Shown here piece after piece: positions 50,365-56,300 of a stretch of 64,000 nt of DNA. Every line of letters begins with the position of its first letter. Within the stretch, counting starts at the first letter, position 1. The position numbers were made by a program. Where the stretch lies: assembly GCF_041248615.1 (NCBI RefSeq), contig NZ_CP158425.1. The stretch is one strand, 5' to 3'. The DNA is from Escherichia coli (GTDB taxonomy: Bacteria > Pseudomonadota > Gammaproteobacteria > Enterobacterales > Enterobacteriaceae).

Positions 50365-53300
50365 TCAATATTATTGAAGCATTTATCAGGGTTATTGTCT
50401 CATGAGCGGATACATATTTGAATGTATTTAGAAAAATAAACAAATAGGGGTTCCGCGCACATGGTGATGCTGCCAACTTACTGATTTAGTGTATGATGGT
50501 GTTTTTGAGGTGCTCCAGTGGCTTCTGTTTCTATCAGCTGTCCCTCCTGTTCAGCTACTGACGGGGTGGTGCGTAACGGCAAAAGCACCGCCGGACATCA
50601 GCGCTATCTCTGCTCTCACTGCCGTAAAACATGGCAACTGCAGTTCACTTACACCGCTTCTCAACCCGGTACGCACCAGAAAATCATTGATATGGCCATG
50701 AATGGCGTTGGATGCCGGGCAACCGCCCGCATTATGGGCGTTGGCCTCAACACGATTTTCCGCCATTTAAAAAACTCAGGCCGCAGTCGGTAACCTCGCG
50801 CATACAGCCGGGCAGTGACGTCATCGTCTGCGCGGAAATGGACGAACAGTGGGGATACGTCGGGGCTAAATCGCGCCAGCGCTGGCTGTTTTACGCGTAT
50901 GACAGGCTCCGGAAGACGGTTGTTGCGCACGTATTCGGTGAACGCACTATGGCGACGCTGGGGCGTCTTATGAGCCTGCTGTCACCCTTTGACGTGGTGA
51001 TATGGATGACGGATGGCTGGCCGCTGTATGAATCCCGCCTGAAGGGAAAGCTGCACGTAATCAGCAAGCGATATACGCAGCGAATTGAGCGGCATAACCT
51101 GAATCTGAGGCAGCACCTGGCACGGCTGGGACGGAAGTCGCTGTCGTTCTCAAAATCGGTGGAGCTGCATGACAAAGTCATCGGGCATTATCTGAACATA
51201 AAACACTATCAATAAGTTGGAGTCATTACCCTCCCCTCAAAGCCATATCACGTACGTTAATCCTGACTTCATTAAAATCAGTGGTTTCACTGAGGAAGAA
51301 CTATTAGGCCAGCCTCACAACATCGTAAGACACCCAGATATGCCGCCTGCTGCATTTGAGCATATGTGGAGTACATTAAAATCTGGCCGCTCATGGATGG
51401 GGCTAGTAAAAAATCGCTGTAAAAATGGCGACCACTATTGGGTAAGTGCTTATGTAACGCCAATAGCTAAGAATGGTTCGATTGTTGAATACCAGTCTGT
51501 AAGGACCAAGCCTGAACCTGAGCAGGTTTTGGCTGCGGAAAAATTATATGCTCAATTGAGAAGCGGGAAGGCCGCGAGGCCGAAATTGGCTGCTAGCTTT
51601 TCCGTGAAAATACTCTTGCTCATATGGGGTAGTATTATATCAAGCGCAATGGCTGCCGGCATGCTTACTGATACATCAATAAGCAGCTTATTGTTAGCCA
51701 CTTTAATGTCAGGAAGCTTAAGCTCTGTTAGTGTTTTGGCTATTCTCTCTCCTCTTGGAAGACTGGTTGAAAGAGCCAGGAATATTTCCAATAACCCATT
51801 AAGTCAATCCCTCTACACTGGGCGCACCGATGAGTTTGGCCAAATAGAGTTTGCTTTACGAATGATGCAAGCTGAAACAGGCGCCATAGTAGGTCGCATA
51901 GGTGATGCATCAAATCGGCTTAGCGAACACACCCGAGGCCTACTAAAGGATATTGAGTCAAGCAATGTACTTACAGTTGAGCAGCAGGCAGAGACAGATC
52001 AAATAGCAACGGCAGTAAACCAAATGGTGGCAAGCATTCAAGAGGTTGCGAGCAATGCACAGCATGCTGCAGATGCGGCCGGAAGAGCAGACACTGAGAC
52101 GGCATCTGGCCAGCGTCTGGTAGCCCACACAAGCCAGTCAATCACTGCCCTTGAAGGTGAAATTAGGCAAGCCACTCAGGTTATTCATGAGCTTGAAGGT
52201 CAAAGTAACGAGATATCAAAAGTTCTTGACGTTATACGAGGGATCGCCGAGCAAACGAATTTGTTGGCACTCAACGCAGCAATTGAGGCCGCGCGTGCTG
52301 GTGAGCAGGGGCGTGGTTTTGCTGTTGTCGCCGATGAGGTTCGCAGTCTTGCTGCTCGCACACAGCAATCGACAACGGATATTCAAAGCATGATCAGCGC
52401 TCTACAAGAGCGAGCGCAATCCGCTGTTACAGTCATGGAGCAAAGTAGTCGGCAAGCGCACACGAGTGTAGCTCACGCAGAGGAAGCAGCTACAGCTCTT
52501 GATGGAATTGGCCAACGCGTTAACGAAATTACCGACATGAACGCGCAAATAGCGACTGCGGTCGAGCAGCAGGGAGCAGTAAGTGAAGACATAAACCGCA
52601 GTATTATCAATATACGCGATGCTGCTGATACCAATGTACAGACCGGGCAGAATAATTTGCAAAGTGCGAAATCTGTCGCTCAGTTAACTAGCGCTCTGAG
52701 CGAACTGGCAAAACAGTTTTGGGAAAAACGAGGATAACGCTTTTCAGTATCTCGACAGGGATAACTTACTTTACCATCGGTTATCCCTTTTAGCCGCACA
52801 AATTTTAGCCATGGCTTTTCAGGAAGTCAGGGCTATCAGAATGGCCTTAGAAAGCCTAGTCAAAGAGCTGTCACGAGAACACCGTTAGCTTAGCGTACGA
52901 TTTTTTCCGAATTCTGCGGTTCCCCCTTAAATACCTTCCGATGGACTTAAACCTTGCCGCTGCAACTTCCTCGAAATAGGGCAGCATTCTTTTGCTGGCA
53001 TTAGCGATTGCCTGCGTTCGTTGTGTGATGATTTTGCTGATGGCTGTGCTGATCTGCCCTTCTTTTAAGGCCGCTTCTCTGATTTGTTCAATGCGGGTAT
53101 CTGAAATACCAGAGGACAGAGCATTCTGAACTGATCCAATTGCCAAGGAAGTGACCGCCTGCTGCTCTTGAGAGGGCACTAACGCAACGCTAATGCCCGT
53201 CACAGGGTTTTCACGGTCATCTGTACCTAATTGCTCAATCGCGAGGTCACGGAGCCCCTGAGCATCACTCACGAGGGCTGTAAGCGATGCCTGTAGGCTA

Positions 53301-56300
53301 TTCACTTCTTCCTGAGCTTGTCTGAGTTCAGCATCCCGGATTACCTTATGGTCGGGTTCAAATACAAAACTGGACAGAAAATCCTTAACCAGGAAGCGAT
53401 GCTCTCGCATTTCTTTGCCACGTTCCCTACGGTAGCCACTGCTGTCTTCAGTGACAATAGCAACAGTCTGACCGTAAACGCGGGGATGGGCGCGTAGAAT
53501 TACTGTATGCAGCTTATCTTCAACGTAACGCAAAGACGTAATGAGCAGTGTATCCCCTGCCACAATACCCTCTTCAGGGATGCTGTCAGTGGACGTCCAG
53601 TACTGACCCGCCAGCAAAGAATGAAATCGCTCTAAACGGTCAATGCTATTTTTGCTGACCAGGTCACCCATATACTTTTCCTTCCAGATTCGTGTGTTAG
53701 GTGAATCATACCAGATTGCCCTTGCCGTCTAATAACGCAGAAAACTGTGAATCCAAAATTCCTTAAATTCAAACCTGTCCAATATAAAAGATGGCTCTTT
53801 TTCTTATCCAGTGTTAAGCGATAATGCTCAATTTTATTTCATTATTGTCAGAATCAAAATAATCTGAAAATAAAAAAGGCTTCAGAATTGAAGCCTCTAT
53901 ATTATACAACGTGAATGTATTTTATTTATCTTTCACCGGGTTCATTTCCCAGTATCTTTCACGTACGTTTTCTTGGCAATGGTCCGCTCGCTCCGGCGTG
54001 TCCCTTTTACGAGTAGCAAATGCTTCAATTACGGCATTCAAGTCTTTTTCTTTGATTTTAGATCCAACAGGCAAGTTTTCTTCAAACTCAGTCCTTACCA
54101 GTTCTTTCGTTTTTTTATAATCGGTTTCACTTTGGATTTCAGGTTTTAAACAAATATCGGCAACCATCACATCTGATTTGCCCGGGATCGGTTTTTTCCC
54201 GTTTTCAGATGCAAGGACCGCAGAGGAGGTAAAGGCGACAGACAGAGTTGCACATAACAGAAGGTATTTTAATTTCATGACTCACTCCATGATTATCAAT
54301 GATGGTTGCTCAGACACATCATTTATACCATGCCTGTCACCGAATACGAGATCCCCATATTTTGGCTTTAAATATTATCCAATAGGGTTTCATACACCTG
54401 GCTTCTGAAAGCAAGGTTCAAGGAGCTTCAGGGGGAAATCAGATTGTTGTCGACCCAGTACTTGTGCAAACCTACCACCCAATTCCTGGAAATGGACGAA
54501 AGTTCATGCGCCAGTTCACGACAGCATTCAGGCGTAAAAATACGTATGGGTCCTGAAGTACCGATATCAACAGACATGATAAACTCCAGAATGTTGCCAT
54601 GGCATAGGTTGTTTCTCAGCCTGACAATTTCTGCTTCAGGTGTTCTCCCGGCTGCTACCTTAACCAACATATCCTGCTCGGCTGGAAATGAAAGTAATTC
54701 TACCGGCACCCCTTCCTGCTTGGCCTTTCTCAGTAAGGCATTACTCATTACGGAGATACCCTCCAAGTCCACCAGCTCAGGAGCTGCATGCTGATCGTTA
54801 ACTGTTGGTTTCAGCATCAGCGACTTCAACGTAACCATGAGTGATGTTTCAATCCCGTTCAGGAAGCTCGTACAGGCCGGTATCCATAGTTCGTGATGCA
54901 ACGCCTCGGTTGCTTGTTTAAAGAACCAGTCAATCACGGGGACAGTGTGATAATCATAATAGTGATTTATCTCGCTGAATCTTGACATATAAGCATCGTA
55001 CTCAGCCTGGTCTTCAGGAGATAAAAAATTTGGTGGGAGGGGCATCAGAATCCTTTCATCCTAGCTTGTATACCTTCTTCGTAGGCCAGCTCGCCATTAT
55101 CGGTAAAAGATGGTTTTTGGTGTTTGTGACAAAGCTTAATTTTTCGTCAGGCTCGATAGCGTTACCGGAGAGATTTGATCTTTTCTCTGTAACTCGCAAT
55201 ACTGTTTATACATACAGTATGAGAATTCGAGTGTAGCTATGTCTGTTATCCTTGAGCACATTAGCAACAAGCCTTACGAAATGGCACCTTTTTTCAGTGA
55301 TTTACTGAGCTGTGGAGTGATGAGTCCGTGCGCCGGGCATGAAGATAATGAATTAAATTTGCATGAATATGTAGTCCGTAACCGCCCCTCAACCTTCTTT
55401 GTCAGGGCGGCGGGCCTCAGTATGATCAATGCCGGTATCAATGATGGCGCTATTCTGGTTGTGGATCGGTCTTTAACGGCACGACACGGCTCTATCGTCG
55501 TTGCGCTGGTGGATGGAGAGTTCACGGTAAAGATCTTACACACGTATCCTGAGCTGCTTTTGATGCCTTCTAATCCAGCCTATAAGCCGATACGTGTAAA
55601 TCCCGAATCCCTTGAGATATGGGGCGTCGTCACCTTTGCACTGAATCAGTTTAGCCATGTACATGCACGTTGATATTAACGGGGCCTATGCGGCATTTGA
55701 GTGTGCGATGGATCCCAAGCTGGCAAAAAAGCCGCTCATCATAGCCAGCAATAACGATTCGTCCGTCATTGCAATGAATAAACTGGCTAAAAGCGTTGGT
55801 ATTAAGCGTGGGACCCCAATTTTTAAGTGCAGGGATTTGATTCAGCAACACCAGATCGAAGTCCGGAGCTCTAACTTTACTTTGTATGAAGACTACTCAA
55901 ATCGCTTCCATGAAACGCTGGAAAGCTTCGCGCCTCAATCGAGTCGATATAGCATAGATGAAAATTTCATGTTATTGAAAAACATGAACAAGATAATAGA
56001 TTATGAAGATTACGGCCGGTTGATCAGAAGTACACTTCTTCATAATCTGTCCCTTACCTGTGGTGTGGGGTGTTCAAGCACCAAAACCCTGGCTAAATTA
56101 TGCACCTATGCGAGCAAACGATGGGCAGCTACAGGCGGGGTTGTAGTTTTGACTGATCAGGCCAGGATCAGGAAGCTCCTGGGCCTTATCAGTACCAGAG
56201 AAATATGGGGTATTGGTCAAAAGATCAGTGAACGCCTGTCGGCTTTCGGGATCATCACTGCCGGTGATTTTTATAATAGCGACGTTCGCTTTTTACGTAA

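What the first reader, a model, noticed from the sequence alone, without database searches (positions are those of the whole stretch)
52927..53671. The gene destroyed by the insertion encodes a ~388-aa two-TM protein of unknown function
Reconstructed from 53671..52927 plus 15850..15429 (minus strand), the product has a ~250-aa soluble N-terminal domain, two closely spaced TM helices and a ~70-aa charged C-terminal tail. I recognise no family. It is co-oriented with the 175-aa gene at 14735..15262, so a backbone function, possibly a two-gene module, has been inactivated. The N-terminal 266 aa may still be expressed as a truncated product fused to IR-encoded residues.
Basis: inference. Interest (0 to 1): 0.45.

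Follow-up and report, generated by a model that had tools for sequence, protein, structure and literature searches.

The report
Transposon-split relic of a deletion-fused plasmid gene
The interrupted 388-codon reading frame is real, but it is not a native gene: an earlier 3.8-kb deletion in the IncHI2 plasmid backbone welded the first 239 codons of a widespread, uncharacterised ~1,100-residue plasmid protein onto a small two-helix membrane protein, so the transposon split a gene that was already broken.

Summary
Joining minus-strand 53671..52927 to 15850..15429 restores a 1,167-nt, 388-codon ORF. The join is flanked by 38-bp Tn1721-type inverted repeats and a 5-bp TTTAA duplication. Sixteen complete IncHI2 plasmids carry the same ORF uninterrupted, at 99.8-100% identity.

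The ORF is a chimera. Residues 1-239 are the N-terminus of a ~1,111-aa protein that is intact in about 300 other IncHI2 plasmids. That protein has more than 140 homologue clusters of ~1,000-1,190 aa, all called "hypothetical". Residues 241-388 are residues 16-163 of a separate two-TM gene found only in IncHI2.

A 3,822-bp deletion with 3-bp AAG microhomology (window 52955..52953) joined the two in frame. It removed the large protein's conserved core and a 171-aa gene. The transposon then landed 22 nt downstream, and 621 plasmids share its right junction.

The ancestral function was therefore lost before the insertion. The 175-aa neighbour is an independent, more widely distributed gene, not a dedicated partner.

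The ~1,100-aa family has no Pfam, NCBIfam, PADLOC, PHROGs or PDB match, despite a confident structure model. Its function remains unknown. The window feature itself is ordinary gene decay.

The parts
52956..53671 (-). Codons 1-239 of the chimeric ORF. They derive from the 5' end of the ~1,111-aa IncHI2 'hypothetical protein' gene (WP_000502666.1 family).
   Evidence: 97.0% nt identity to L005:8927-9719. All ~1,100-aa homologues match query aa 1 to about 242 only.
52953..52955 (-). Deletion junction: the 3-bp microhomology AAG shared by both parental genes (codon 240, AGG).
   Evidence: Three-way alignment. The BLAST segments overlap by 3 bp, L001 9717-9719. Coordinates read.
52927..52952 (-). 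The first 26 nt derived from the 163-aa two-TM gene (its codons ~15-24), ending in the left copy of the target-site duplication.
52927..52931 (.). Left copy of the 5-bp target-site duplication TTTAA.
52889..52926 (.). 38-bp terminal inverted repeat of the Tn1721-type element, at the MCP/orfI end.
   Evidence: 35/38 match to the other IR. The adjacent PAS-MCP gene 51217..52737 is shown.
52871..53671 (-). Truncated 266-aa ORF: 249 residues of the fusion plus 17 IR-encoded residues ([17 protein letters not shown]).
   Evidence: Annotated WP_223230068.1. Seen on 600 contigs.
53781..53898 (-). Upstream signals: a terminator-like hairpin (53898..53875) ending the 118-aa gene, and sigma-70-like -35/-10 pairs (53870..53841, 53810..53781) ahead of the ATG at 53671. 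The RBS-like motif GGAAGGA lies downstream of this interval, just 5' of the ATG.
   Evidence: consensus scan only. Sequence.
15851..52926 (.). A ~37-kb complex resistance region bounded by the Tn1721-type IRs. It carries tet(A)/tetR, a sul3-type class 1 integron, strAB, aph(3')-Ia, aac(3)-IIe, blaTEM-1, IS26, IS1 and others.
   Evidence: Window 30000-54500 is 100% identical to p14408_M1 NZ_LT599829.1 126000-150500. Annotation. GC shift.
15856..15893 (.). 38-bp terminal inverted repeat at the tet-module end, followed inward by a truncated Tn3-family tnpA ORF (15889..17709).
   Evidence: The identical junction is present in 621 plasmid records.
15851..15855 (.). Right copy of the target-site duplication TTTAA.
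15429..15850 (-). The 3' 422 nt of the chimeric ORF, equal to codons ~24-163 of the IncHI2 163-aa two-TM gene (two TM helices plus a 70-aa charged tail). RefSeq annotates the internal 128-aa ORF 15429..15815.
   Evidence: 97.8% nt identity to L005:13542-14354..
14735..15262 (-). Downstream 175-aa gene. It is intact here and is an independent, broadly distributed plasmid gene.
   Evidence: tblastn finds 2,327 plasmid records, including 39%-identical copies in Vibrio, Proteus and Klebsiella plasmids that lack the two-TM gene.

Best explanation
The feature is a gene relic that has been damaged twice. Step 1 (shown): the ancestral IncHI2 backbone carried, after umuDC and two small genes, a ~1,111-aa gene, a 171-aa gene, a 163-aa two-TM gene and a 175-aa gene. 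Step 2 (shown): in one IncHI2 sublineage a 3,822-bp deletion occurred between two sites sharing only AAG. It fused codon 239 of the large gene in frame to codon ~15 of the two-TM gene. It removed residues 240-1111 of the large protein, which include the family's most conserved block, the whole 171-aa gene, and the start of the two-TM gene. The result is the 388-aa chimera. Step 3 (shown): a Tn1721-type transposon, now a ~37-kb resistance region, inserted 22 nt downstream of that junction with a TTTAA duplication and split the chimera. Step 4 (inferred): the large protein's ancestral activity was lost at step 2, not step 3. The chimera was dispensable. What remains is at most a 266-aa cytoplasmic fragment expressed from the native promoter, plus a possibly unexpressed two-TM remnant. 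Step 5 (inferred, weak): the ancestral ~1,100-aa protein is a cytoplasmic multi-domain protein of the establishment or anti-defence-type gene arrays of conjugative elements.
For: Chimera: P0004/L002 and L005 show a separate 1,111-aa gene (split by IS3 into 675+428 aa in L002) and a separate 163-aa gene. BLAST of L001 against L005 gives a 3,822-bp gap with a 3-bp overlap.

Polarity: an exhaustive search found 200 clusters at E<1e-3. The full-length hits are ~1,000-1,180 aa and all align to query aa 1 to about 242 only. Residues 238-388 match only IncHI2 163-aa variants and junction artefacts. IncHI1 and IncHI3 plasmids carry full-length genes, and the IncHI1 copy sits in the same umuDC synteny. 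The 52-53%-identical relative P0005 continues to align with the long form past the breakpoint.

Core lost: the conserved block at about aa 230-520, with its invariant residues, lies in the deleted part.

Order of events: uninterrupted fusions exist in 16 complete plasmids and on at least 1,000 contigs. In the junction-specific searches, 69 records carry the fusion junction and 300 match only up to it. The left IR junction is present in 52 records and the right IR junction in 621.

Dispensability: in many plasmids that keep only the start of the gene (e.g. pSDC-F2_12BHI2), IS26 lies ~35 nt beyond it and only the first ~144 nt (48 codons) still match.

Context of the family: umuDC-like genes, a small GmrSD_N protein, AcrVA2-like, Acb1, ArdC, TopB, H-NS and an orphan methyltransferase recur as neighbours.
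Against: The fusion is in frame and keeps its promoter-like and RBS-like signals. It is conserved at 99.8-100% in many isolates. The N-terminal 239 codons show dN/dS of 0.06 between the fusion and full-length lineages (15 synonymous and 3 non-synonymous changes). A retained or new function for the chimera therefore cannot be excluded. However, most of that divergence may predate the deletion, and an in-frame join has a 1-in-3 chance. No expression or phenotype data were available. The functional guess for the ancestral family rests on neighbourhood only. One context (L017) also contains an MmeI restriction-modification gene, HipA and an AAA ATPase directly upstream, which looks like a defence island rather than an anti-defence one.
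Confidence: 0.88

Rival explanations
1. One reading: a native, unitary gene for a 388-aa protein with a soluble N-domain, two TM helices and a charged tail. It may work together with the 175-aa gene, and its backbone function was destroyed by the transposon.
For: The ORF reconstructs perfectly and exists uninterrupted, annotated as a CDS, in 16 complete plasmids. It is co-oriented with the 175-aa gene, 166 nt downstream.
Against: The two halves are separate genes 3.8 kb apart in about 300 IncHI2 plasmids. All distant homologues of the N-half are ~1,100 aa and none carries the TM half. The TM half is IncHI2-specific with its own start codon. The 175-aa family occurs widely without it.
Confidence: 0.04
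2. The chimera is a neofunctionalised gene. The deletion tethered the N-terminal domain of the large protein to the inner membrane, creating a selectable new activity, for example a dominant-negative or decoy form. The transposon insertion then removed that activity.
For: The junction is in frame. Positive-inside charge distribution (5 K+R before TM1, 0 in the loop, 17 after) predicts that both soluble parts are cytoplasmic, so the topology is viable. The exact 388-aa sequence is seen on at least 1,000 contigs. dN/dS is low in the N-half.
Against: The junction falls inside predicted helix 230-243 of a helical region that packs on the deleted part. The conserved core is missing. The transposon-split form is carried by 621 plasmids against 16 uninterrupted, and it is further eroded by IS26 with no sign of a cost. 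Sequence diversity within the fusion lineage is too low to show selection.
Confidence: 0.08
3. Reverse polarity: the 388-aa gene is ancestral, and the 1,111-aa form arose by insertion of a 3.8-kb segment.
For: None beyond formal possibility. The two forms differ by a single indel.
Against: There are 140 clusters at E<1e-10, and 370 profile hits, all ~1,000-1,190 aa, from Burkholderia, Bordetella, Agrobacterium, Klebsiella and others. They are colinear across the breakpoint. No transposon ends flank the 3.8-kb segment.
Confidence: 0.01

Closest known systems
WP_000502666.1-type ~1,111-aa 'hypothetical protein' of IncHI2 (pESC15ND24-1), with homologues in IncHI1 (52-53%), IncHI3/Klebsiella (46%), Burkholderia, Bordetella, Agrobacterium and other plasmids
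   Same: Residues 1-239 of the window ORF are its N-terminus (98.7% aa, 97.5% nt identity). The upstream genes, promoter region and start codon are the same.
   Different: The window lacks residues 240-1111, including the conserved block at about aa 230-520 and every domain beyond it. The family itself has no Pfam, NCBIfam, PADLOC, PHROGs or PDB assignment.
WP_000636790.1-type 163-aa two-TM protein of IncHI2
   Same: Residues 241-388 match its residues 16-163 (96.6% aa): both TM helices and the charged tail.
   Different: Its own start and first ~14 codons are deleted. In the window it is further separated from any promoter by 37 kb of transposon. The family is confined to IncHI2.
WP_015059497.1, the uninterrupted 388-aa chimera of pSH111_227 and 15 other complete IncHI2 plasmids
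   Same: 99.8-100% identical to the reconstructed window ORF.
   Different: It is not interrupted by the transposon.
Tn1721 / TnAs1-type Tn3-family transposons and hybrid Tn1721/Tn21 resistance regions of IncHI2 plasmids (PMC7355605)
   Same: 38-bp IRs, a 5-bp duplication, a PAS-MCP orfI at one end, and a tet(A)-tetR-EamA module with a truncated tnpA at the other. That this layout is that of Tn1721 rests on my own knowledge.
   Different: It has grown to ~37 kb through integron, IS26, Tn3-family and IS insertions. The insertion site differs from the one described for the ST4 plasmid in PMC7355605.

Membership tests
~1,100-aa uncharacterised conjugative-element protein family (WP_000502666.1-like) | Significant sequence homology of the N-terminal ~240 residues | tested here: met
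   phmmer E-values from 4e-70 down to 1e-10 against 140 clusters, all over query aa 1 to about 242.
~1,100-aa uncharacterised conjugative-element protein family (WP_000502666.1-like) | Full-length architecture of ~1,000-1,190 aa | tested here: not met
   The window ORF is 388 aa, and only 239 of them are homologous. A 3,822-bp deletion accounts for the difference.
~1,100-aa uncharacterised conjugative-element protein family (WP_000502666.1-like) | Conserved core block at about aa 230-520 (invariant G277, E298, R336, N363, H386, LFP392-394, GLD441-443 and others) | tested here: not met
   All of these positions lie in the deleted segment. Only H55, H62, P63, F102, R112 and E235 are retained.
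IncHI2 163-aa two-TM protein (WP_000636790.1-like) | Two closely spaced TM helices plus a ~70-aa charged C-terminal tail, with high identity | tested here: met
   96.6% aa identity over 148 codons. Hydropathy peaks at 270-292 and 298-318.
IncHI2 163-aa two-TM protein (WP_000636790.1-like) | Own start codon and N-terminus (MIVNKNRFMHKNGK...) | tested here: not met
   Removed by the deletion. Reading enters from the large gene.
Tn3-family (Tn1721/TnAs1-type) transposon insertion | ~38-bp terminal inverted repeats | tested here: met
   35/38 identical.
Tn3-family (Tn1721/TnAs1-type) transposon insertion | 5-bp target-site duplication | tested here: met
   TTTAA on both sides. Removing one copy restores the uninterrupted gene exactly.
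Tn3-family (Tn1721/TnAs1-type) transposon insertion | Tn3-family transposase next to an IR | tested here: met
   A 606-aa tnpA-like ORF at 15889..17709 abuts the IR. Relatives annotate 'Tn3-like element TnAs1 family transposase' at this junction. It is truncated here and therefore probably not autonomous.
Any curated protein family or defence system (Pfam, NCBIfam, PADLOC, PHROGs) | Score above the curated threshold | tested here: not met
   No hit at or above threshold for the 388-aa chimera (all four libraries). The 1,111-aa parent was scanned against Pfam, NCBIfam and PHROGs, and its two IS3-split halves against PADLOC. The 163-aa and 171-aa parents were scanned against all four. Forty-three diverse family members were scanned against Pfam. 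The best was KwaB/DUF4868 at E=1e-3 on the C-terminal part of the parent, which I judged to be noise.

The most novel reading that the evidence does not exclude
Probability: 0.4. Interest if true: 0.55.

Novelty: new member of a known kind. Interest (0 to 1): 0.22.

Why it matters
For the window itself it matters little. The transposon did not knock out a working backbone function, because the gene was already a deletion-made fusion. Phenotypes of these resistance plasmids should not be attributed to this insertion.

Three practical points follow. First, RefSeq annotates the chimera (388 aa), the 266-aa stump and the 128-aa tail as ordinary hypothetical proteins, which inflates the apparent diversity of proteins. 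Second, the deletion junction (AAG at 52955..52953) and the transposon's right junction (present in 621 plasmids) are clean lineage markers for IncHI2 epidemiology. Third, the analysis exposes a widespread, unannotated ~1,100-aa family of conjugative elements that deserves experimental study, with natural full-length and deleted plasmid pairs available.

Tried and rejected
1. A single-sequence AlphaFold model of the 388-aa chimera gave pLDDT 36.9 and was unusable.
2. Pfam, NCBIfam, PADLOC and PHROGs scans of the chimera, its neighbours and its parental genes gave only sub-threshold noise: Phycobilisome, TraX, iSTAND, EAD5, and KwaB at E=1e-3.
3. PDB sequence searches with the 1,111-aa protein and with its 80-sequence profile found nothing below E=0.09.
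5. I tested whether the 128-aa ORF after the large gene in IncHI1 is a homologue of the TM half. It is not (E=0.26).
6. Literature searches for this gene, this insertion site or the TTTAA duplication in IncHI2 found nothing specific.
7. dN/dS as a test of decay was uninformative because there are too few substitutions.
8. The idea that the deletion was caused by the transposon was rejected. The junction is 22 nt away from the IR, and the deletion exists without the transposon.
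Full report
**Observation**

On the minus strand, 53671..52927 (745 nt) joined to 15850..15429 (422 nt) gives a 1,167-nt frame of 388 codons plus a stop. The intervening 15851..52926 is bounded by 38-bp inverted repeats, GGGGGAACCGCAGAATTCGGAAAAAATCGTACGCTAAG and GGGGAGCCCGCAGAATTCGG…, which match at 35/38 positions. It is flanked by a direct TTTAA duplication at 52931..52927 and 15855..15851.

The insert is GC-rich relative to its flanks. A Tn3-family tnpA fragment abuts one IR and a PAS-MCP gene sits near the other. Window 30000-54500 is 100% identical to E. 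coli plasmid p14408_M1 (NZ_LT599829.1, IncHI2) at 126000-150500, and annotated features elsewhere map at the same +96,000 offset. The annotation of that record shows a tet(A)/tetR module, a sul3-type class 1 integron, strAB, aph(3')-Ia, aac(3)-IIe, blaTEM-1 and several IS elements inside the insert.

The reconstructed gene is 100% identical to uninterrupted genes in three Salmonella IncHI2 plasmids and 99.8-99.9% identical in 13 more. One of these is pSH111_227, WP_015059497.1, annotated "hypothetical protein". Hydropathy gives two helices at about 270-292 and 298-318, followed by a 70-residue tail with 14 K+R and 12 D+E. The truncated ORF 52871..53671 encodes 249 native residues plus 17 IR-encoded residues.

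**What the gene really is**

The first homology search returned very few relatives. One of them (P0004, 675 aa, Enterobacter hormaechei) shares the first ~239 residues and then continues quite differently. Its locus (L002) also holds a separate 163-aa ORF. From its residue 15 onward (…RFKSIGRYLRFWQAVASSGLPM…), that ORF is the C-terminal half of the window protein.

In IncHI2 plasmid pESC15ND24-1 (L005) the long gene is intact at 1,111 aa (WP_000502666.1). In L002 an IS3 element had split it into 675 + 428 aa. The L005 gene order is umuC-umuD | 202 aa | 117 aa | 1,111 aa | 171 aa | 163 aa (two TM) | IS5 | remnant of the 175-aa gene.

BLAST of pSH111_227 (L001) against L005 shows colinearity, apart from a short highly diverged stretch (L001 8454-8927), a clean 3,822-bp gap (L005 9720..13541) and the IS5 in L005. 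The two segments flanking the gap overlap by 3 bp. The three-way alignment shows the join directly:
- Fusion: …GTTGCAGCGGCAAG|GTTTAAGTCC…
- Long gene: …GCGGCAAG|TCTGGCC…
- 163-aa gene: …GGGAAAAG|GTTTAAG…

In window coordinates the shared AAG is 52955..52953, at codon 240. The finding's interval therefore contains 716-719 nt of the large gene and only 26-29 nt of the membrane-protein gene. The transposon's TTTAA target lies 22 nt beyond the deletion junction.

**Polarity**

An exhaustive phmmer scan of 1.84 billion representatives found 200 clusters at E<1e-3, of which 140 were below 1e-10. The full-length ones are ~1,000-1,180 aa, and every one aligns to query residues 1 to about 242 only. Residues 238-388 match only 163-aa IncHI2 variants or junction artefacts.

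A profile search found 370 further members, all ~1,000-1,190 aa. They come from Burkholderia, Bordetella, Ralstonia, Acidovorax, Agrobacterium, Brucella and Klebsiella. IncHI1 plasmids carry the full-length gene in the same umuDC synteny, and an IncHI3 plasmid has it next to an orphan DNA methyltransferase. The long form is therefore ancestral and the 388-aa form is derived.

The two-TM protein is confined to IncHI2 (952 records, with only one 29%-identical fragment elsewhere). The 175-aa protein is found in 2,327 plasmid records, including 39%-identical copies in Vibrio, Proteus and Klebsiella plasmids. It is not a dedicated partner.

**Order and frequency of events**

Junction-specific searches of PLSDB gave the following counts:
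- 300 records match only up to the deletion junction (the full-length lineage), and 69 carry the fusion junction.
- 52 of those carry the left IR junction.
- 621 records carry the identical right IR junction.

The difference between 52 and 621 is probably explained by later erosion. In many IncHI2 plasmids only the first 48 codons (~144 nt) of the gene still match; in the one examined, pSDC-F2_12BHI2 (L008), IS26 lies ~35 nt beyond that point. I did not confirm that these plasmids are the ones carrying the right junction.

As far as I know, Tn3-family elements do not excise precisely. The 16 uninterrupted fusions in complete plasmids, and the at least 1,000 contigs carrying the exact 388-aa protein, therefore show that the deletion came first. 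The transposon insertion then founded the dominant multidrug-resistant IncHI2 lineage.

**What was lost, and when**

In an 80-sequence alignment (A2), the family's most conserved stretch is about aa 230-520. It contains invariant G277, E298, R336, N363, H386, LFP392-394 and GLD441-443. All of it lies in the deleted part.

The alignment-based AlphaFold model of the 1,111-aa protein is confident (pLDDT 85.6, pTM 0.71). It places the junction inside helix 230-243. The chimera keeps a beta-rich region (24-104) and part of a helical region, with a low-confidence stretch at about 150-200. The ancestral activity must have been lost with the deletion, so the transposon hit a relic.

A retained or new function for the chimera cannot be formally excluded. 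It is in frame, and positive-inside charges predict that both soluble parts are cytoplasmic. A terminator-like hairpin and promoter-like sites precede its ATG. The N-half shows dN/dS of 0.06 against the full-length lineage. However, only 18 substitutions are involved and most may predate the deletion. An in-frame join happens one time in three. The split form is carried without apparent cost by hundreds of successful plasmids.

**Function of the ancestral family**

The family's function is unresolved.
- None of Pfam, NCBIfam, PADLOC or PHROGs recognises the family. This includes 43 diverse members scanned one by one against Pfam.
- PDB sequence and profile searches are empty.
- Foldseek against PDB finds nothing at E<=1e-3.
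- BFVD gives one real relative, an uncharacterised 641-aa siphovirus protein (E=1.4e-24).
- There is no Walker A motif.

Gene neighbourhoods in eight unrelated elements are long same-strand arrays of small unknown ORFs on plasmids or ICEs. Recurring neighbours are umuD/umuC-like genes, a small GmrSD_N protein, AcrVA2-like, Acb1, ArdC, TopB, H-NS/KfrA, DnaB and an orphan methyltransferase. One context has MmeI, HipA and an AAA ATPase directly upstream.

My best guess, held at low confidence, is a cytoplasmic multi-domain protein belonging to the establishment or anti-defence-type islands of conjugative elements. A defence role is the main alternative.

**Comparison with what is known, and verdict**

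Every database name for all the forms is "hypothetical protein". I found no paper on this gene or this insertion site. Hybrid Tn1721/Tn21 resistance regions are well known in IncHI2, although the one described is at another site (PMC7355605).

The feature in the window is an ordinary product of plasmid gene decay: a microhomology deletion that made a fusion ORF, followed by a transposon insertion. It is a new instance of a known kind and of low interest in itself. The more interesting by-product is the unannotated ~1,100-aa family, for which natural full-length and deleted IncHI2 plasmids provide ready comparison material.

Noticed in passing
window 53922..54278 (-) and 54428..55045 (-): The 118-aa signal-peptide protein and the 205-aa protein between umuD and the relic gene are strongly diverged between IncHI2 sublineages. 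They are 55/118 and 153/205 residues identical to pESC15ND24-1, and the 205-aa gene has dS 0.38. Flanking genes (umuDC, DsbA, lytic transglycosylase) are 97.9-98.5% identical at nt level with dS 0.05-0.07. This looks like a recombined or hypervariable segment.
   Followed up: partly
window 15851..52926: The insert is a ~37-kb complex resistance region bounded by Tn1721-type IRs. It contains a tet(A)-tetR-EamA module with truncated tnpA at one end and a PAS-MCP gene at the other. In between are intI1-estX-psp-aadA2-cmlA1-aadA1-qacL-sul3, mef(B) remnant-IS26, IS1133-strAB, aph(3')-Ia, a second Tn3-family transposase/resolvase, ISKpn12, ISKpn11, aac(3)-IIe, blaTEM-1 and IS1B. Window 30000-54500 matches p14408_M1 (NZ_LT599829.1) 126000-150500 at 100%, and annotated features across the rest of the stretch examined map at the same +96,000 offset.
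   Followed up: partly
window 14735..15262 (-): The 175-aa hypothetical protein has 39%-identical homologues in more than 1,200 other plasmids (Vibrio, Proteus, Klebsiella, Providencia; many of 130-180 kb, near the start of the record). It is an unannotated, widely conserved plasmid gene. In the full-length IncHI2 lineage it is itself disrupted by an IS5-family element.
   Followed up: partly
L002/L003/L004 (Enterobacter hormaechei contigs) 1..5700: In these contigs umuC is missing. A MPF_T-type T4SS block (VirB4, TrbL, VirB8, CagX, TrbI, DUF2274) abuts umuD. This suggests that another conjugative element or module was inserted or recombined next to this IncHI2-like segment. An IS3 element also splits the 1,111-aa gene there.
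   Followed up: no
window 15811..15890 versus 52887..52966: There is a strong asymmetry in how the two transposon-backbone junctions survive across PLSDB: 621 records keep the right junction and 52 keep the left. IS26-mediated deletion on the MCP side, running into the relic gene (e.g. L008), is the likely cause, although I did not confirm that such plasmids carry the right junction.
   Followed up: partly
L007 (pE20-HI3) 5688..10381; L017 7389..12477: In an IncHI3 plasmid a site-specific DNA methyltransferase ends 68 nt before the ~1,126-aa homologue. In an Acidovorax contig a 536-aa AAA ATPase ends 1 nt before the homologue's start. These may be lineage-specific operon partners of the large family.
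   Followed up: no
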